11,850 nt of DNA, taken from a virus (lineage: Duplodnaviria > Heunggongvirae > Uroviricota > Caudoviricetes). The stretch covers positions 1 to 11,850 of the IMG/VR virus record IMGVR_UViG_3300029190_000061. One strand, 5' to 3'. Each line of letters opens with the position of its first letter. Position 1 is the stretch's first letter. The position numbers were made by a program, and so were the translations under genes. Positions 961-11,236 of the stretch are shown one piece after another. Below the pieces are notes generated by a model that was given only the letters and a program-made list of their open reading frames with translations, made no database searches and was not told the origin of the DNA.

Positions 961-978
961 AGTAAGTAGTTACTTATT
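961..978. promoter_or_regulatory. Near-palindromic motif AGTAAGTA-GT-TACTTATT (site A), in the gap between the CobT-like stop and the CobS-like start
   Basis: Direct sequence reading. Same 8-2-8 architecture as the sites at 7608..7625 and 11219..11236. Confidence 0.45.
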
Positions 979-994
979 TTTAAGGGTAAAGCTA

Positions 995-3223
995 TTACCC
1001 AAGAATGATACGAGATAACTCAGTGACGACTGACGGCCCTAACTCTTCAACACTGTTAACCAGTGCGTAATTTTTGTAGTAACGCCGTGGTTCGTCGGTC
1101 AGAATGCCGATAGCCATCAGTTCGATGTCGCTCAAGGTCTCAATTTCTTTGGTGACGGTTCGTAAATGCTGATGGAATCCACTACCTGTAGCACATGGCT
1201 CCCCATCACTCATAACCAGCATGATCTTTTTGTCCTCCATTCGCACTGCAAACAGGGTAGCCAGTTGCGCGACACTCTCACCATCGACGTTATTGAGCAG
1301 GGGGAACGTCTCACATACGCATCCCATGCGAGCACGGATCTCTGGAGAGTTTGCTTTCTCATTCCAGTTTTTGATAATGGGCAGCATGAGCGCCTCGAAG
1401 CGTGTAAACCCGCGCTTCGACCTGGTTTCATAATCTGGGCTACCGAACGTGGTAAAGCCGGTGATGATGTTGGGGACATTGATACGATCTAAAGCATCCG
1501 CAATGGTATAGGCACTGGCTAGGGCCAGTTGAATCTTCACGCCATCCATTGAGCCGGACAAGTCGATGACCTGCTGGACACACGCGTTCACCGCTCTATG
1601 GTCTTCCTTCTTGCGGAACACTCGGTCGTCGTTCATTGCCAGACGATACAGGCTTGCGCCATGTATCCGCCCACGCCTCTGACCAGGTATAAACTGAACT
1701 CGGTTGCGGCTGGCGATGGCCCGCTCCAGGTCTTTGGCCAGCGTCGAAGAAACGCCTGCAGACAGATGTTTTTCGATTTTCAGTTCAAAGAGTTTTCTGC
1801 CTTCTGGCACCATACGGTAGCGGTCGACTGGTGAGTGCATTGGTATTGCACCGAACGTCTTTCTGGTGCGCTTCACATGCTCTTCGGCTCCATCAATCAA
1901 CCCGATAAAGTCGTATGATCGATCGTATGGCCGATAATCAGAAGGTGAGACGCTCATAAGCTCTTTGCTGATGGTGGCCGACAGTGCGTCTTCGGTCATT
2001 TCACCGATTCCGTCTTCCATCTCGTCGAGCGCCTTTAGCGCCTCCTCCAGAGTCATTTCATCCGGCGCAGGAACAAAGCCAGACTCACTGTCTTTGGGCA
2101 CTTCCGCACCATCTTTATTTTTTTTGCCTTCGACGTCTTCTTCAGTTTCCCCACGATCAGTATCGGAGTCCTCACCGTCATCACCATCAGTGTCAGAGTC
2201 ACTTGATTTCATGCCGATAGCATCGGATTCTGGGGTGTCTCCTGACTCTTCGTGGCCTGCTTCTGTATATTTACTTTCTGTATCACTAATATCTTTAACG
2301 TGTGTAGGTAAGTCCTTATCTAACGAATCAGGCAAATCGGAATCCCCAGAATCTTCCTCTTCTGATGCATCATCTTCTCGTTCTTCCTTGTCATCGCCTT
2401 CGCCTTTGGCAGGCTTAGATGCAGAGTCACCATGAGACGGCTCGTCACCTGATTCTGGCGTTTCCTCGGACTCGTCTTTGCTCTCCGACGGCTTTCTGGC
2501 AGATGATTTAAGTTCTGGTAATTTGCCCTCTGGCTTGTCTTTCATATCCTGCATGATTTGGGCTATAGCAGCAGCGACCTTCACGCAATCCTCAGTGTTC
2601 GACATATTGCGAACGGCCACGTCTATACCATGCTCCTTTAGTAAGGCTACCGGCCTCTCGATAAGGCGCCAGTGTTCTTCCATAAAATCGATGAAGGGGC
2701 TTTGTCCATCCCAGGCGCGGACGACCGGGCAAAGGAAGAATTTCAAAAACAATTCACGCTGGTCTCCGTGACAGGCTAAAACCGCTTCTGGTACTTTATT
2801 CCTGAAGTATTTGTCGATAACCAGACTCTGTGTTGCAAGTAAATTACGCCGGGTTCCGTTAAAGACCTGCCCCATTCTGCGTTCAATAAAAACGTCTTCC
2901 AGCGCATTCCAAAGCCCCGTAGACGGAGCCTTTCCTCTTTCGCGCATCTGCATTGCGACTTTCGGTTCAGTAAAGAGAATATGGGCCACCTCATGGTCGA
3001 GAAAACCACGCACTGCGTTCATGAGGGTTGGCGACGCGTCGTCCGGTATAGATGGGATGTTTACCAGCACTGGTTCGCCGCGCCGGTTATAGCGGACATA
3101 TGCTTCATTGCCTCGTTCTGCAACAGGTATCTGTTTACCTGAAAGCATCGCTACAACTCGTTTTACACAGTCGCGAAAATCCTGCACCTCTTTCAGTACA
3201 GCTTTGGTGGTTTTTTTGGACAT
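995..3223 (-). CDS. CobT-like protein with C-terminal VWA domain and a long acidic low-complexity linker
   Basis: Track ORF 995..3292. I prefer the ATG at 3223, which has AAGGA 7 nt upstream; the 3292 ATG lies inside a hairpin loop and has no SD. VWA MIDAS-like DLSGSMDG and downstream MSDGEP. About 180 aa of D/E/S/K-rich linker (roughly nt 2005..2545). HEVAH (HExxH) near the N-terminus. Confidence 0.75.
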   Translation of the reverse strand: MSKKTTKAVLKEVQDFRDCVKRVVAMLSGKQIPVAERGNEAYVRYNRRGEPVLVNIPSIPDDASPTLMNAVRGFLDHEVAHILFTEPKVAMQMRERGKAPSTGLWNALEDVFIERRMGQVFNGTRRNLLATQSLVIDKYFRNKVPEAVLACHGDQRELFLKFFLCPVVRAWDGQSPFIDFMEEHWRLIERPVALLKEHGIDVAVRNMSNTEDCVKVAAAIAQIMQDMKDKPEGKLPELKSSARKPSESKDESEETPESGDEPSHGDSASKPAKGEGDDKEEREDDASEEEDSGDSDLPDSLDKDLPTHVKDISDTESKYTEAGHEESGDTPESDAIGMKSSDSDTDGDDGEDSDTDRGETEEDVEGKKNKDGAEVPKDSESGFVPAPDEMTLEEALKALDEMEDGIGEMTEDALSATISKELMSVSPSDYRPYDRSYDFIGLIDGAEEHVKRTRKTFGAIPMHSPVDRYRMVPEGRKLFELKIEKHLSAGVSSTLAKDLERAIASRNRVQFIPGQRRGRIHGASLYRLAMNDDRVFRKKEDHRAVNACVQQVIDLSGSMDGVKIQLALASAYTIADALDRINVPNIITGFTTFGSPDYETRSKRGFTRFEALMLPIIKNWNEKANSPEIRARMGCVCETFPLLNNVDGESVAQLATLFAVRMEDKKIMLVMSDGEPCATGSGFHQHLRTVTKEIETLSDIELMAIGILTDEPRRYYKNYALVNSVEELGPSVVTELSRIILG

Positions 3224-3276
3224 TAGAATTTCCTTGTTGTTAAAACAATTTGTTTTCTGATGTGCGTAATTTATCA

Positions 3277-3309
3277 CTGTACGAACAGGCATCTAATCTG
3301 TTCGTACAG
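3277..3309. repeat. Perfect 12-bp inverted repeat CTGTACGAACAG / CTGTTCGTACAG with a 9-nt spacer
   Basis: Arms at 3277..3288 and 3298..3309 are exact reverse complements. Lies between the 70-aa ORF stop and the CobT-like start. No flanking U-tract, so not a canonical intrinsic terminator. Confidence 0.45.
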
Positions 3310-3335
3310 GCGCTAGAGAGGATGGGAGGGGTGTG

Positions 3336-3548
3336 TTAAATAGTGCGGACGGCTACTGAACCGCAGCCGGTATTGATGAGAGTGAAGCACTTGCCCTTTA
3401 GCTCAAAGATGTATGCGGTTGCGTCTTTCATGTCAAGTAACAAAGACTTTGTTGGCAGTTCAGTGAGTATGGCTGCTGCCCCATCATCGTCAATTGAAAC
3501 CGTATGTCCGACCTCAAGGGCGATCAAATTAGAAGTTATTTTTTTCAT
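3336..3548 (-). CDS. Hypothetical small protein (70 aa), first gene of the presumed CobT/CobS-like operon
   Basis: Track ORF with ATG at 3548 and a weak GGA SD-like sequence. Sits directly downstream of the AT-rich divergent promoter region. No recognisable motif. Confidence 0.45.
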   Translation of the reverse strand: MKKITSNLIALEVGHTVSIDDDGAAAILTELPTKSLLLDMKDATAYIFELKGKCFTLINTGCGSVAVRTI

Positions 3549-10280: not shown

Positions 10281-10327
10281 GCTTCTAACCGTAATCTTGT
10301 ACTTACTTATTAATCGCAGTTTAAAGA

Positions 10328-10344
10328 AGCCCCACGAGGGGGCT
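10328..10344 (-). terminator. Putative intrinsic terminator after the 270-aa gene
   Basis: Stem AGCCCC / GGGGCT with a 5-nt loop, followed on the minus strand by TCTTTAAA; 18 nt downstream of the 270-aa stop. Confidence 0.4.
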
Positions 10345-10361
10345 AAATGTTTTATCGAGGC

Positions 10362-11174
10362 TTACCAGGTCGCCCAGCCAGTCATTTTGTCCTGAGCAGC
10401 TTCGAACCGGTATGGGTCCAGTAAATCGTTGGTACGATGAACGGCGTAGGATTTGGCTTCTTGTTTAATCATGGGTAATTCGTTGGCCAGACGAGCCACT
10501 TGCCCTGCAAAACTGGCGAGTACTCCGTCACATGCCTGACCCGCGTCGACAATGATGCGCACCAGGTCTAAGTCGCTGCGGCACATATCGCAGATAATGC
10601 CGTATTCCACCTCACGAATGCGCTCAACGGCTTTTTTGATATCGCCACTGACCACCAATTCCAGCAAACCAGGTGGAGTTGTCAGATCTGTTACGCGCTC
10701 GGTAACTTCAGACTGTTCGACAATACTCAGGAACGCCGCGATGGACGGGTCATCCGCCACACCAGCTCTGACTTTGAGCGTGCGAAGAGTTGCGTCGACA
10801 ATATCCTCACACCGTTCACCTTCATCGCACACAGTCTGATTGGTGTAGACAGTCTGATTAGTGTAGACAATGCGACCGTCGTACCATGCACCGGTACTCA
10901 CTTCGACCGTTGCGTCTTTCATCTCGCGAGAGAACGCCACAAGTGCCGCGCGTTTCTGCTTAACACCTGGCAACTCCGGGGACTCTCCAAAACGAACCCA
11001 GACCTGCATGTATTTCGAGCCTTCCGAAAGAGGTGCGGCGCTCACGGACGTGGCGATATGCTCCAGCGCAGTTTGGATCGCCTCGTCGATAATCTTCTGG
11101 CGCTCTTCTGTATCAATTTCTACGCCGGATTTGTCGATGATGTCGCAGACTAACTTCTGAAATTCTTCTTTCAT
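10362..11174 (-). CDS. Hypothetical protein (270 aa)
   Basis: Track ORF with SD AGGAG 7 nt upstream of the ATG at 11174. Contains an in-frame tandem duplication (VYTNQT twice). No recognisable motif. Confidence 0.6.
   Translation of the reverse strand: MKEEFQKLVCDIIDKSGVEIDTEERQKIIDEAIQTALEHIATSVSAAPLSEGSKYMQVWVRFGESPELPGVKQKRAALVAFSREMKDATVEVSTGAWYDGRIVYTNQTVYTNQTVCDEGERCEDIVDATLRTLKVRAGVADDPSIAAFLSIVEQSEVTERVTDLTTPPGLLELVVSGDIKKAVERIREVEYGIICDMCRSDLDLVRIIVDAGQACDGVLASFAGQVARLANELPMIKQEAKSYAVHRTNDLLDPYRFEAAQDKMTGWATW
10833..10868. repeat. Two tandem 18-bp units (AGTCTGATTGGTGTAGAC / AGTCTGATTAGTGTAGAC) inside the 270-aa CDS
   Basis: Units at 10833..10850 and 10851..10868 differ at one base. 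In frame, encoding VYTNQT-VYTNQT. Confidence 0.7.
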
Positions 11175-11218
11175 AGCAACTCCTGACTAACAGATGAAAG
11201 TATTCTTTCAGAAAGATA

Positions 11219-11236
11219 AGTAAGTATCTACTTATT
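11219..11236. promoter_or_regulatory. Near-palindromic motif AGTAAGTA-TC-TACTTATT (site D), upstream of the 270-aa gene
   Basis: Direct sequence reading. A minus-strand TATAAT (plus 11234..11239) overlaps the right arm, 60 nt upstream of the ATG at 11174. Confidence 0.45.

What the first reader, a model, noticed from the sequence alone, without database searches (positions are those of the whole stretch)
961..11236. Dispersed near-palindromic motif AGTAAGTA-NN-TACTTATY at operon boundaries
Three strong copies share an 8-2-8 near-palindrome: 961..978, 7608..7625 and 11219..11236. The last two match at 20 of 22 positions once the GATA extension is included. A half-site sits at 10301..10310 and a shorter relative (GTAAG-CA-CTTAC) at 3761..3772 beside the HTH gene's -10. 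Every copy is intergenic or at a gene end, and none is GC-rich enough to be a terminator. This looks like a regulon of operator sites for one dimeric DNA-binding protein, comparable to dispersed repressor operators in temperate phages; the HTH protein (3805..4194) and the 70-aa winged-helix-like protein (8075..8287) are candidate binders.
Basis: seen in the sequence. Interest (0 to 1): 0.6.

Follow-up and report, generated by a model that had tools for sequence, protein, structure and literature searches.

The report
Phage-plasmid operator palindrome at gene-unit heads
The three repeats belong to a 22-bp palindrome that marks about 20 to 28 gene-unit boundaries in every SSU5/pHCM2-type phage-plasmid examined, and it is most likely the binding site of the element's own repressor, which is encoded inside this window.

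Summary
The window is part of an SSU5/pHCM2-type E. coli phage-plasmid. The three copies belong to a 22-bp palindrome, RATARGTA-N6-TACYTATY (consensus GATAAGTAAGTACTTACTTATC).

In a complete relative, pTB212, it occurs 17 times with at most 2 mismatches, against 0.13 expected. Sixteen of the 17 sites lie outside coding sequence. They sit in front of replication, nucleotide-metabolism, capsid, tail and lysis genes, and none precedes a plasmid-maintenance or cargo gene.

The same core, AGTAAG-NN-CTTACT, sits at orthologous junctions in Cyrano, Klebsiella, Moellerella, Yersinia and Acinetobacter relatives.

The motif is symmetric, conserved in sequence rather than in base pairing, and includes conserved half-sites. 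That fits a dimeric DNA-binding protein, not an RNA hairpin or a terminator.

The best candidate binder is the 129-aa Cro/CI-type protein (3805..4194). It is conserved across the family, its Cyrano orthologue is expressed in lysogens, and a variant site abuts its own conserved promoter.

No binding was tested. Repressor operator versus activator-dependent promoter element remains unresolved. The 70-aa protein is poorly supported. I found no published description.

The parts
957..978 (.). Motif copy 1: GTATAGTAAGTAGTTACTTATT, matching the 22-bp consensus at 17 of 22 positions, with a good 14-bp core AGTAAGTAGTTACT at 961-974. It lies between the stop of the CobT-like gene (995) and the start of the CobS-like AAA ATPase gene (899), both on the minus strand.
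   Evidence: The orthologous CobT|CobS junction carries a site in Cyrano, Klebsiella L096, Moellerella L095, Yersinia L090 and Acinetobacter pDETAB1.
7604..7625 (.). Motif copy 2: GATAAGTAAGTAAATACTTATC, a perfect 8-6-8 palindrome matching the consensus at 20 of 22. It overlaps the last 5 nt of the 101-aa ORF (7621..7926, minus strand) and lies about 730 nt upstream of tRNA-Asn (6803-6877, minus strand).
   Evidence: Cyrano has the same site at 38251, directly after CYRAN_39 and upstream of its tRNA cluster.
11215..11236 (.). Motif copy 3: GATAAGTAAGTATCTACTTATT, matching the consensus at 19 of 22. It lies 40 nt upstream of the start of the 270-aa gene (10362..11174, minus strand). On the gene strand the three preceding bases plus the first three motif bases read TATAAT.
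   Evidence: The Cyrano orthologue is at 34729, upstream of CYRAN_34, which is the one motif-led gene visibly expressed in lysogens (about 4x background).
10290..10311 (-). Half-site. On the minus strand it reads AATAAGTAAGTACAAGATTACG, with the left arm and centre intact and the right arm absent. It follows a terminator-like hairpin and lies 9 nt upstream of the 158-aa gene start (10280).
   Evidence: It is also kept as a half-site in Cyrano (35606, GATAGGTAAGTACAAGATTATT).
3756..3777 (.). Variant site at the HTH gene's promoter: TATCAGTAAGCACTTACCATAT. The core AGTAAGCACTTACC (3760-3773) matches the core at 13 of 14, and the outer arms are not conserved. It starts inside the -10 hexamer and covers the expected transcription start.
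   Evidence: The core is invariant in five enteric lineages and in the Yersinia, Kluyvera and Buttiauxella loci. The Acinetobacter HTH gene has AATCAGCACTTACT next to TGATATAAT.
3731..3758 (+). Sigma-70-type promoter of the HTH gene: TTTACA, 16 nt, TAATAT. A conserved GATAAGTC half-site-like element sits at 3723-3730, just upstream.
   Evidence: Consensus scan. The whole block is conserved in the five-lineage alignment while the rest of the intergenic region is not.
3805..4194 (+). Gene for the 129-aa Cro/CI-type (XRE) HTH protein, the best candidate binder. Its 3' end overlaps the convergent tyrosine recombinase gene (4189..5292, minus strand).
   Evidence: PHROG 8 'transcriptional regulator', E 1.2e-10. 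The Acinetobacter homologue hits Pfam HTH_3 at 7e-9. The orthologue CYRAN_45 is annotated 'putative repressor' and expressed about 10x over background in lysogens. Homologues are found in 1003 plasmids, against 1036 with the SSU5-type terminase.
3578..3599 (-). Tentative half-site at the divergent early promoter. On the minus strand it reads AATAGGTAGTAGTATTGCAAGG. Its first three bases complete TGATACAAT, an extended -10-like element at 3597-3605, upstream of the 70-aa gene (3336..3548).
   Evidence: The AATACTACTA part is conserved in all five lineages, but the ATAGG arm is not kept in Cyrano, so membership is uncertain.

Best explanation
The motif is the operator of a phage-plasmid-encoded dimeric DNA-binding regulator. 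It sits on or next to the weak promoters that head nearly every lytic transcription unit of SSU5/pHCM2-type phage-plasmids.

Most likely the 129-aa Cro/CI-type protein encoded at 3805..4194 binds the 14-bp core AGTAAG-NN-CTTACT as a dimer, with the flanking RATA/TATY arms adding affinity. This would keep about 20-28 dispersed units silent while the element lives as a plasmid prophage. A weaker variant site over its own transcription start would give negative autoregulation.

Shown: the motif's existence, symmetry, number, placement, and conservation of place and sequence across distant relatives; the co-conservation and lysogenic expression of the HTH protein; and the promoter-plus-site arrangement at its gene.

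Inferred: that this protein is the binder, that binding represses, and where transcription starts.
For: (1) Replicon-wide regulon. There are 17 sites with at most 2 mismatches in pTB212 against 0.13 expected, and 16 of 17 are non-coding. Cyrano has about 22 sites and Acinetobacter pDETAB1 about 28.

(2) The sites precede lytic genes only: portal, scaffold-like gene, tail genes, holin, SSB, SbcD, RNR, ThyA/ThyX, Dam, CobS, the helicase/primase region and ligase operon genes. No site precedes repA, parA, toxin-antitoxin, fimbrial or restriction-modification genes, or any of the Cyrano genes reported as expressed in lysogens.

(3) Orthologous placement is kept in 4-5 lineages whose terminase is only 60% identical, for example at the CobT|CobS and TerL|portal junctions.

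(4) DNA-level symmetry. Both arms and the centre (AGTACT) are palindromic. There is no consistent strand asymmetry in the enteric sites. Half-sites are conserved as half-sites. Predicted RNA hairpin energies for the three window copies are -1.6, -10.8 and -4.7 kcal/mol, so a hairpin is not a conserved property. My hand count on the sites shows A-C mismatches between the arms are not avoided.

(5) The sites overlap core promoter positions. At the HTH gene the site starts inside the -10 of a conserved TTTACA-16-TAATAT promoter. At two sites a TTGAAA-17-TATGAT/TATCAT promoter encloses the palindrome. Four pTB212 sites lie only 11-16 nt from a start codon, and one Cyrano site abuts the ATG. A protein bound there would occlude RNA polymerase.

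(6) The HTH protein is the only annotated DNA-binding protein I found shared by the E. coli and Acinetobacter relatives. Its recognition helix N(P/A)NNLSLIKSGK is identical or nearly so wherever the enteric motif is kept, and differs (NQNMVSFIVRGK) where the centre and arms of the motif differ. CYRAN_45 is expressed in lysogens, whereas the ParB-like genes and the 70-aa gene are at background.

(7) In lysogen RNA-seq, RNA levels fall on average across motif junctions (mean step -0.25 to -1.34 log2, against +0.15 to +0.53 at junctions without a motif). This is consistent with silent, insulated units.
Against: No binding experiment or transcription-start map exists.

Most sites have no recognisable -35 and only a weak, symmetric -10-like hexamer (nAnRAT / TATYnT) at each end. 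Strong promoters that would need repression are therefore not evident, and this fits an activator-dependent promoter equally well.

The gene behind the site with the best -10 hexamer (copy 3, CYRAN_34) is expressed in lysogens.

Many step-downs in RNA are explained by terminator-like hairpins at the same junctions. Six of 20 junctions were detected automatically, plus about three more by eye.

Different motif-led units respond to different stresses (B1 versus MB6), so they do not behave as one simple regulon.

The site at the HTH promoter would also be expected if the binder were a lytic regulator that shuts off the repressor.

Covariation between recognition helix and motif rests on very few independent lineages.

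In three cases the motif is followed, not preceded, by a terminator. That arrangement is odd for a promoter-operator.
Confidence: 0.5

Rival explanations
1. Activator-dependent lytic (middle/late) promoter element. A phage-encoded dimeric activator or RNA-polymerase-redirecting factor made early after induction binds the palindrome and recruits host polymerase to promoters that lack a -35. This would resemble the 9-bp inverted repeat of the eleven P1 late promoters bound by Lpa. The same factor bound over the start site of the HTH gene would switch the repressor off.
For: Most sites lack a -35 and have only weak -10-like hexamers. Several sites directly follow a terminator, where a new promoter is needed. 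In stressed lysogens RNA steps up exactly at some sites: CYRAN_11->12 +2.5, 55->56 +3.6 and 59->60 +3.7 log2 in macrophages, and 52->53 +2.2 and 82->83 +1.9 in medium. In Acinetobacter about 40% of sites form TATAAT with the last core base, a T-rich UP-like tract lies upstream, and that relative encodes a sigma-like protein. The P1 precedent is in PMC10695390.
Against: The sites precede replication genes as well as structural and lysis genes, so they do not define a temporal class. With a start inside or just after the palindrome, the site covers -30..-9 or -9..+13, which are positions typical of repressors rather than activators. No conserved candidate activator was found, and the Acinetobacter sigma-like protein has no homologue in the E. 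coli elements. Across all 20 junctions, step-ups are not enriched (one-sided P 0.77-1.0).
Confidence: 0.27
2. The motif is a binding site for another conserved DNA-binding protein with a non-transcriptional or silencing role. An example is the ParB-like pair encoded upstream of the terminase genes, acting as KorB does on the 12 palindromic OB sites of RK2, or as the dispersed SopB sites do in the phage-plasmid N15.
For: Two ParB-family genes are conserved in the E. coli and Acinetobacter elements. A site lies in the promoter region between the ParB gene and the divergent helicase gene in pTB212, Cyrano and pDETAB1. ParB-family proteins bind palindromes; the KorB and N15 precedents are from my own knowledge.
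Against: CYRAN_119 and CYRAN_120 are at background in lysogens, so they cannot be the lysogenic silencer. The ParB gene of pTB212 is annotated as frameshifted. Placement at almost every lytic gene-unit head points to transcription rather than partition. The working partition genes (ParA and its neighbour) carry no such site.
Confidence: 0.08
3. The motif acts at the RNA level. The palindrome is transcribed and forms a hairpin serving as a weak or bidirectional terminator, a processing site, an mRNA-stabilising structure or a translational operator.
For: Eleven of 20 pTB212 sites lie within 16 nt after the upstream stop codon. A-rich and T-rich flanks resemble a bidirectional terminator. RNA drops on average across the junctions in lysogens. 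Copy 2 would fold at -10.8 kcal/mol.
Against: Copies 1 and 3 fold no better than shuffled sequence (-1.6 and -4.7 kcal/mol, z -0.3 and -1.5). Conservation is of sequence in both arms and in the would-be loop, with no compensatory pattern, and A-C mismatches are tolerated. Conserved half-sites cannot form hairpins. The stems have two G-C pairs. Separate G+C-rich terminators sit beside many sites.
Confidence: 0.06
4. The motif is a recombination or mobility element: a short repeat spread by a mobile cassette or used as a hotspot for module exchange, with no regulatory role of its own.
For: The sites lie at module boundaries. In pTB212 a cargo block (IS3 remnants, fimbrial operon, phd-doc) is inserted 33 nt from copy 3. 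T4-type phages have repeated promoter-stem-loop cassettes that mediate shuffling (own knowledge).
Against: There is no repeated flanking sequence, target duplication or associated ORF. The same junctions are occupied in relatives as distant as Acinetobacter, with lineage-specific consensus changes applied to all copies. That pattern indicates selection by a common reader, not copy-and-paste spread.
Confidence: 0.03

Closest known systems
Bacteriophage P1 C1 repressor and its dispersed operators
   Same: Both are phage-plasmids whose lytic functions are spread over many transcription units, each with its own copy of one operator, under a single plasmid-prophage repressor. The repressor's own gene is also controlled. 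C1 controls early genes and the lysis-lysogeny decision (PMC10695390). The number and asymmetry of the operators are from my own knowledge.
   Different: P1 operators are asymmetric 17-mers bound by a 283-aa protein unrelated to the 129-aa XRE-type protein here. Here the sites are 22-bp palindromes and also precede structural and lysis genes, which in P1 are served by a separate class of Lpa-dependent promoters.
Mycobacteriophage L5/Bxb1 repressor (gp71) 'stoperators'
   Same: There are some two to three dozen repressor sites per genome, in short intergenic regions throughout early and late operons, silencing the whole prophage (own knowledge). The average fall in RNA across motif junctions in lysogens is compatible with this.
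   Different: Stoperators are 13-bp, asymmetric and orientation-dependent, and they act by blocking elongation. Here the sites are symmetric with no orientation bias. A roadblock effect is not separable from the adjacent terminators. Hosts and proteins are unrelated.
P1 late promoters with the Lpa-binding 9-bp inverted repeat
   Same: A conserved inverted repeat takes the place of a -35 at eleven dispersed promoters of a phage-plasmid, next to a -10 hexamer (PMC10695390). Many sites here also lack a -35, and in Acinetobacter they abut TATAAT.
   Different: Lpa sites serve late genes only. The motif here serves replication, nucleotide-metabolism, structural and lysis genes. No Lpa homologue is annotated in pTB212 or Cyrano; I did not search for one by sequence.
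KorB operators (OB) of plasmid RK2 and dispersed SopB sites of the phage-plasmid N15
   Same: In both, palindromic sites for one ParB-family protein are scattered over a replicon, some in promoter regions, giving global control (own knowledge). ParB-like genes are present here.
   Different: The ParB-like genes here are silent in lysogens. The sites are about twice as numerous and tied to lytic gene-unit heads.
Cro/CI-type (XRE family) phage repressors with palindromic operators (lambda, 434, P22)
   Same: The candidate binder has the XRE helix-turn-helix. The 14-bp core has the size and symmetry of a 434-type operator. The gene lies next to a recombinase gene and faces a divergent early operon.
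   Different: It has no peptidase (S24) domain for RecA-mediated cleavage. Operators are not clustered in one immunity region but spread over about 100 kb. The full conserved site is 22 bp.

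Membership tests
Operator set of a dimeric DNA-binding regulator | Dyad-symmetric sequence with both half-sites conserved in sequence | tested here: met
   The consensus GATAAGTAAGTACTTACTTATC is a perfect palindrome. Mirrored positions carry similar information content in 145 distinct sites, and arm positions are near-invariant.
Operator set of a dimeric DNA-binding regulator | Sites enriched in regulatory (non-coding, promoter-proximal) DNA over chance | tested here: met
   There are 17 sites against 0.13 expected, and 16 of 17 are non-coding although only 14.6% of the replicon is non-coding. 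They lie 11-129 nt from the next start codon in 17 of 20 cases.
Operator set of a dimeric DNA-binding regulator | Sites conserved at orthologous positions in diverged relatives, with coordinated consensus change | tested here: met
   The same junctions are occupied in E. coli, Cyrano, Klebsiella, Moellerella, Yersinia and Acinetobacter. The centre TA changes to CG and the arms GATA to TATT in all Acinetobacter copies.
Operator set of a dimeric DNA-binding regulator | Demonstrated binding by a specific protein | not testable with these tools
   No protein-DNA prediction or experiment is available here. A single-sequence AlphaFold2 model of the HTH protein was of low confidence (pLDDT 56).
Cro/CI-type (XRE) HTH repressor, for the protein at 3805..4194 | Helix-turn-helix domain of the HTH_3/XRE type | tested here: met
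   PHROG 8, E 1.2e-10. The Acinetobacter homologue (35% identical) hits Pfam HTH_3 at 7e-9. The window protein itself has no Pfam hit at E<=0.01. Weak PDB sequence hits are to HTH repressors.
Cro/CI-type (XRE) HTH repressor, for the protein at 3805..4194 | Expressed in the lysogen and autoregulated | tested here: inconclusive
   The orthologue CYRAN_45 is at 96 normalised reads against a background of 9.8. An invariant palindromic core covers its predicted start site. Autoregulation itself is untested.
Intrinsic (rho-independent) terminator | G+C-rich stable stem followed by a U-tract | tested here: not met
   The stems have two G-C pairs. Folding energies are -1.6, -10.8 and -4.7 kcal/mol, and two of three are no better than shuffles. 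The consensus scan reports none at the three copies.
Sigma-70 promoter | -35 and -10 hexamers at 16-18 nt spacing | tested here: inconclusive
   The scan finds none at copies 1-3. -10-like hexamers occur at both ends of the palindrome on both strands. Only two pTB212/Cyrano sites have TTGAAA-17-TATGAT/TATCAT. The variant site at the HTH gene sits on a full promoter.
LexA (SOS) box | CTGT-N8-ACAG | tested here: not met
   The motif lacks it. True LexA boxes occur elsewhere: window 5321-5340 upstream of the recombinase gene, and upstream of the S24 gene in pTB212 and Cyrano.
Structured RNA element | Pairing conserved through compensatory changes | tested here: not met
   The R/Y positions of the two arms vary independently, and A-C combinations are about as frequent as expected (hand count on the sites). 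The would-be loop is itself palindromic, and half-sites are conserved.

The most novel reading that the evidence does not exclude
The palindromes are not ordinary operators. One possibility is that they are the common signal of a genome-wide silencing and insulation system in Gram-negative phage-plasmids. This would be a symmetric counterpart of mycobacteriophage stoperators, in which one small XRE protein both occludes some 25 promoters and blocks read-through between units. The other possibility is a new class of palindromic phage promoter, read by host polymerase only with an as yet unidentified phage factor. Either would be conserved from Enterobacterales to Acinetobacter.
Probability: 0.2. 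Interest if true: 0.65.

Novelty: new member of a known kind. Interest (0 to 1): 0.45.

Why it matters
SSU5/pHCM2-type phage-plasmids are common. About 1000 records in the plasmid collection carry the SSU5-type terminase. They include pHCM2 of Salmonella Typhi, the pMT1 backbone of Yersinia pestis, and resistance-carrying elements of E. coli, Klebsiella and Acinetobacter. I found almost nothing published on how they control lysogeny.

One conserved 22-bp signal at the head of nearly all lytic units, plus a single conserved candidate repressor, gives a directly testable model of the switch. It also provides a simple sequence marker for annotating transcription units in these elements, and a handle for curing or inducing them.

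The general principle, dispersed operators of a prophage repressor, is already known from P1 and L5.

Tried and rejected
(1) Literature. Full-text searches for SSU5/pHCM2/pMT1 with repressor, operator, promoter or palindrome, and for the motif sequences themselves, found no description. One 2026 preprint on an SSU5-type element, which mentions promoters 49 times, could not be opened. The P1 genome paper was not held.

(2) Fixed -10 downstream of the motif. No common hexamer was found in the enteric sites. The -10-like signals at both ends are symmetric, so I could not assign direction or a start site.

(3) RNA-seq as proof of promoter activity. My first reading picked out step-ups. The full test over 98 junctions showed no enrichment of step-ups and an average step-down, partly explained by adjacent terminators. 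I therefore withdrew the claim that the data show promoters at the sites in general.

(4) Sigma factor. The sigma-70-like gene of the Acinetobacter relative has no homologue in the E. coli elements, so I rejected it as the common reader.

(5) Covariation of recognition helix and motif. Enteric lineages with 60-100% identical repressors share both helix and motif. Only Acinetobacter differs clearly, so there are too few independent changes.

(6) The genome-contig scan with the HTH alignment gave only 5 loci. The exact-pattern scan of viral contigs gave 114 stretches, of which part are contigs already fetched as SSU5-type loci; I did not examine the others. Neither was informative.

(7) The Moellerella 'CTCTCTATAGCGGTC' repeats turned out to be iterons clustered around repB, not a dispersed analogue.

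(8) The single-sequence structure model of the HTH protein was too poor (pLDDT 56) for a fold search.

(9) The half-site at the divergent early promoter (3578-3599) fits the '-10 overlaps the motif start' register, but its arm is not conserved in Cyrano. I kept it only as tentative.

Full report
**What the window is**

The 11.85-kb window is 99-99.9% identical over its first 11.7 kb to about 25 E. coli plasmids of 85-139 kb. One of them is pTB212 (NZ_CP033252.1, 110,417 bp). I fetched it whole and used it as the replicon context.

pTB212 carries repA, partition genes and toxin-antitoxin genes. It also carries a full siphovirus gene set and T4-like replication and nucleotide-metabolism genes. 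Its large terminase is 99.5% identical to that of Salmonella phage SSU5. The window therefore comes from an SSU5/pHCM2-type phage-plasmid.

On the minus strand the window holds these genes:
- a CobS-like AAA ATPase (start at 899) and a CobT-like protein (995..3224)
- a 70-aa acidic protein (3336..3548)
- a tyrosine recombinase (4189..5292)
- a YafO toxin pair (5593..6548) and tRNA-Asn (6803-6877)
- small ORFs, a 70-aa winged-helix-like protein (8075..8287), DNA ligase (8447..9769), and 158-aa and 270-aa proteins

On the plus strand it holds the 129-aa HTH protein (3805..4194). The window ends in an IS3-family remnant.

**Checking the observation**

Copies 2 and 3 share 19 of 22 positions, not 20. 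The more accurate description is a 22-bp palindrome, RATARGTA-N6-TACYTATY, with consensus GATAAGTAAGTACTTACTTATC. Copy 2 (7604-7625) is a perfect 8-6-8 palindrome, copy 3 (11215-11236) matches the consensus at 19 of 22, and copy 1 (957-978) at 17 of 22 with a good 14-bp core.

**The motif is replicon-wide**

In pTB212 the pattern occurs at 17 places with at most 2 mismatches, against 0.13 expected in first-order Markov simulations. ATAAGTAAGTA is the most frequent 11-mer of the whole replicon.

Sixteen of the 17 sites are non-coding or overlap only the end of a gene, although coding sequence is 85.4% of the replicon. My binomial estimate is P of about 6e-13.

The sites lie in front of the portal, a scaffold-like gene, tail genes, the holin, SSB, SbcD, thymidylate synthase, Dam, CobS, the helicase-primase region and the ligase-operon genes. 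None lies in front of repA, parA, toxin-antitoxin, fimbrial or restriction-modification genes.

In sense orientation the site is 11-129 nt from the next start codon in 17 of 20 cases, and within 16 nt after the preceding stop codon in 11 of 20.

**Conservation in relatives**

Phage Cyrano (pLF82, OV696614) has the same motif at about 22 places. Its HTH gene is only 69% identical in DNA to the window's.

Other relatives carry recognisable variants at the same junctions:
- a Klebsiella plasmid, HTH protein 46% identical over the matched part: GATAAGTAAA-yr-yTTACTTATC
- a Moellerella plasmid, 42% identical: wATAAGTA-N6-TACCTAy
- loci from Yersinia pestis, Kluyvera and Buttiauxella

The most distant relative examined is Acinetobacter baumannii pDETAB1 (terminase 60% identical). 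Its dominant k-mers are TATTAGTAAGCGCTTACTAATA, at about 28 places. The core AGTAAG-NN-CTTACT is the same, but the centre and outer arms differ.

The junctions CobT|CobS (window copy 1), TerL|portal and others are occupied in four or five lineages. A lineage-specific change applied to all copies, with position retained, points to one trans-acting reader under selection. It does not look like a repeat that has spread.

**DNA site or RNA structure?**

Several observations favour a DNA site:
- Both arms and the central six bases are palindromic in sequence. In 145 distinct sites, mirrored positions have similar information content, and the flanks are A-rich on one side and T-rich on the other.
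- The R and Y positions of the two arms vary independently, and A-C combinations, which would break an RNA helix, are not avoided (my count on the sites).
- Half-sites are conserved as half-sites. Window 10290-10311 and Cyrano 35606 both read ...TAAGTACAAGATTA....
- As RNA, the three window copies fold at -1.6, -10.8 and -4.7 kcal/mol, and two of the three are no better than shuffled sequence.

I conclude that the element is read as double-stranded DNA by a symmetric, presumably dimeric, protein.

**Relation to promoters**

The clearest case is the HTH gene itself. A TTTACA-16-TAATAT promoter lies at 3731-3758, and the variant site TATCAGTAAGCACTTACCATAT (3756-3777) follows directly. This whole block is invariant in five enteric lineages, while the rest of the 256-bp intergenic region has diverged. 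The core is also unchanged in Yersinia, Kluyvera and Buttiauxella. The Acinetobacter HTH gene has AATCAGCACTTACT next to TGATATAAT.

At two dispersed sites a TTGAAA-17-TATGAT/TATCAT promoter encloses the palindrome.

Most other sites have no -35. They have weak -10-like hexamers at both ends, nAnRAT reading inward and TATYnT reading outward, on both strands. I could not assign a start site. The very short distances to some start codons (0-16 nt) argue that, where the site heads a transcript, the start lies inside or upstream of the palindrome. In either register the palindrome covers -30..-9 or -9..+13. A bound protein at those positions would exclude RNA polymerase.

**Published expression data**

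The LF82 study (PMC9928086) gives per-gene RNA-seq values for Cyrano in lysogens under five conditions (S1 Table).

Lytic genes are at background in LB. The HTH orthologue CYRAN_45, annotated 'putative repressor', is at 96 against a background of 9.8. The ParB-like genes and the 70-aa orthologue CYRAN_37 are at background.

I first noted step-ups exactly at some motif sites: CYRAN_12, 56 and 60 in macrophages, 53 and 83 in medium, and 34 in all conditions. When I tested all 98 co-directional junctions, the 20 motif junctions showed no enrichment of step-ups. On average they showed a fall in RNA, with mean steps of -0.25 to -1.34 log2 against +0.15 to +0.53 at junctions without a motif.

Six of the 20 junctions also have a terminator-like hairpin by automatic detection, and about three more by eye. 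The sites are therefore boundaries of transcription units. These data cannot tell whether the bound protein itself blocks read-through. I also do not know whether the libraries were strand-specific.

**Who binds?**

I compared all annotated pTB212 proteins with the Acinetobacter replicon. The only annotated DNA-binding protein that came back, apart from ParB-family, replication, repair and packaging proteins, is the window's 129-aa protein (37% identity).

It matches PHROG 8 'transcriptional regulator', and its Acinetobacter homologue matches Pfam HTH_3. Homologues occur in 1003 plasmid records, against 1036 with the SSU5-type terminase, always next to the recombinase gene.

Its putative recognition helix is N(P/A/S)NNLSLIKSGK in all enteric lineages that share the enteric motif. 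It is NANNISLIKSGR in the Klebsiella variant, AHNNISMIKSGK in Moellerella and NQNMVSFIVRGK in Acinetobacter. This is consistent with the motif differences, but there are too few independent changes to count as proof.

The protein has no S24 peptidase domain.

The Acinetobacter sigma-like protein has no E. coli counterpart. The 70-aa winged-helix-like protein has no detectable Acinetobacter counterpart.

**Most likely mechanism and how sure I am**

I think it most likely (about 0.5) that the palindromes are operators of this Cro/CI-type protein. It would keep the dispersed lytic units silent in the plasmid-prophage state and autoregulate through the weaker variant site at its own promoter.

One argument for a global on/off reader rather than a temporal activator is that the same site precedes replication, structural and lysis genes alike.

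The main rival (about 0.27) is an activator-dependent promoter element of the P1 Lpa type. The lack of -35 elements and the stress-specific step-ups fit that reading. The site at the HTH promoter is then explained as shut-off of the repressor.

I consider ParB/KorB-like binding, RNA-level function and a recombination element unlikely, for the reasons given under each rival explanation.

**Comparison with known systems and novelty**

The arrangement works like the dispersed C1 operators of P1 and, in number and spread, like the stoperators of mycobacteriophage L5. It differs from both in being a 22-bp palindrome with no orientation bias, and in its unrelated small XRE-type candidate binder.

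I found no description of the motif in the searchable literature. I therefore rate it a new member of a known kind. It is of moderate interest because the family is widespread and clinically relevant and its lysogeny control is essentially uncharacterised.

Noticed in passing
window 3243-3255 (minus-strand leader of the CobT-like gene, start 3224): A second dispersed palindrome, AAACAAnTTGTTT, usually within AGAAAACAAnTTGTTT. It has 17 copies in pTB212 and 18 in Cyrano, all intergenic and nearly all in 5' leaders just before the ribosome-binding site. Most are preceded about 13 nt upstream by a -10-like hexamer (GATAAT; TGATAAATT in the window). It is absent from the Acinetobacter relative. 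It may mark a different (early?) promoter class or a second operator.
   Followed up: partly
window 5393-5423; single copies at 7044-7055 and 8064-8075 (minus strand): A perfect 12-7-12 inverted repeat, ATGATTCCATAC-cttacaa-GTATGGAATCAT, lies about 100 nt upstream of the tyrosine recombinase gene. Cyrano has the same arms with a different 7-bp spacer (ctactat). This is the architecture of a lox/dif-like core site, probably the recombinase's target for dimer resolution as in P1 Cre-loxP. The 12-mer occurs 4 times in the window against 0.04 expected.
   Followed up: partly
window 5321-5340: A near-consensus LexA box, TACTGTATTTATAAACAGTG, lies 29 nt upstream of the recombinase start (5292, minus strand). 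A second one lies upstream of the S24/UmuD-like gene in pTB212 (80699). Both places are conserved in Cyrano. The recombinase gene converges on the HTH gene and overlaps its 3' end (4189-4194). SOS-induced transcription of it could run antisense through the repressor gene, which is a possible induction route for this SOS-inducible family.
   Followed up: no
window 3277-3288 and 3298-3309: A 12-bp inverted repeat, CTGTACGAACAG-N9-CTGTTCGTACAG, lies between the 70-aa acidic gene and the CobT-like gene, directly upstream of the TGATAAATT element. In Cyrano, RNA falls about 30-fold across the equivalent junction in macrophages (CYRAN_46 to 47), but the repeat itself is not obviously conserved there.
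   Followed up: no
window 2303-2324 (inside the CobT-like gene): A weak motif-like sequence, TGTAGGTAAGTCCTTATCTAAC (4 mismatches), lies within coding sequence. Similar versions recur in related loci. It could be an internal site or a coincidence of a conserved peptide.
   Followed up: no
window 11240-11850; pTB212 23188-30553: An IS3-family remnant begins about 33 nt from motif copy 3. In pTB212 it is followed by a fimbrial operon and phd-doc, inserted where relatives have the primase gene directly upstream. This is a cargo insertion point beside a motif site. Similarity to the closest plasmids stops at window position 11702.
   Followed up: no
window 6803-7603; Cyrano 38251-39270: The roughly 730 nt between copy 2 and tRNA-Asn has no annotated gene. 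In Cyrano the antisense ORF CYRAN_40, which overlaps the tRNA cluster, reads 150 against a background of 9.8 in lysogens. This probably reflects tRNA expression in the prophage state. Two sigma-70-like promoters are predicted on the minus strand at 7232-7204 and 7078-7051.
   Followed up: no
L004 (A. baumannii pDETAB1) 24664-25329: The Acinetobacter relative encodes a 221-aa protein annotated as a sigma-70 family factor, between the dnaE and MoxR/CobS-like genes. The Pfam Sigma70_r2 hit is weak (E 0.0026, below cut-off). It has no homologue in the E. coli elements.
   Followed up: partly
window 3336-3548 (minus strand): The first gene of the operon facing the repressor gene encodes a 70-aa acidic, non-HTH protein (PHROG 2627, unknown function). 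A similar small acidic protein sits at the same place in Acinetobacter. Its Cyrano orthologue CYRAN_46 rises about 90-fold in macrophages (log2 4.3 to 10.8). It could be an anti-repressor or a DNA mimic.
   Followed up: no
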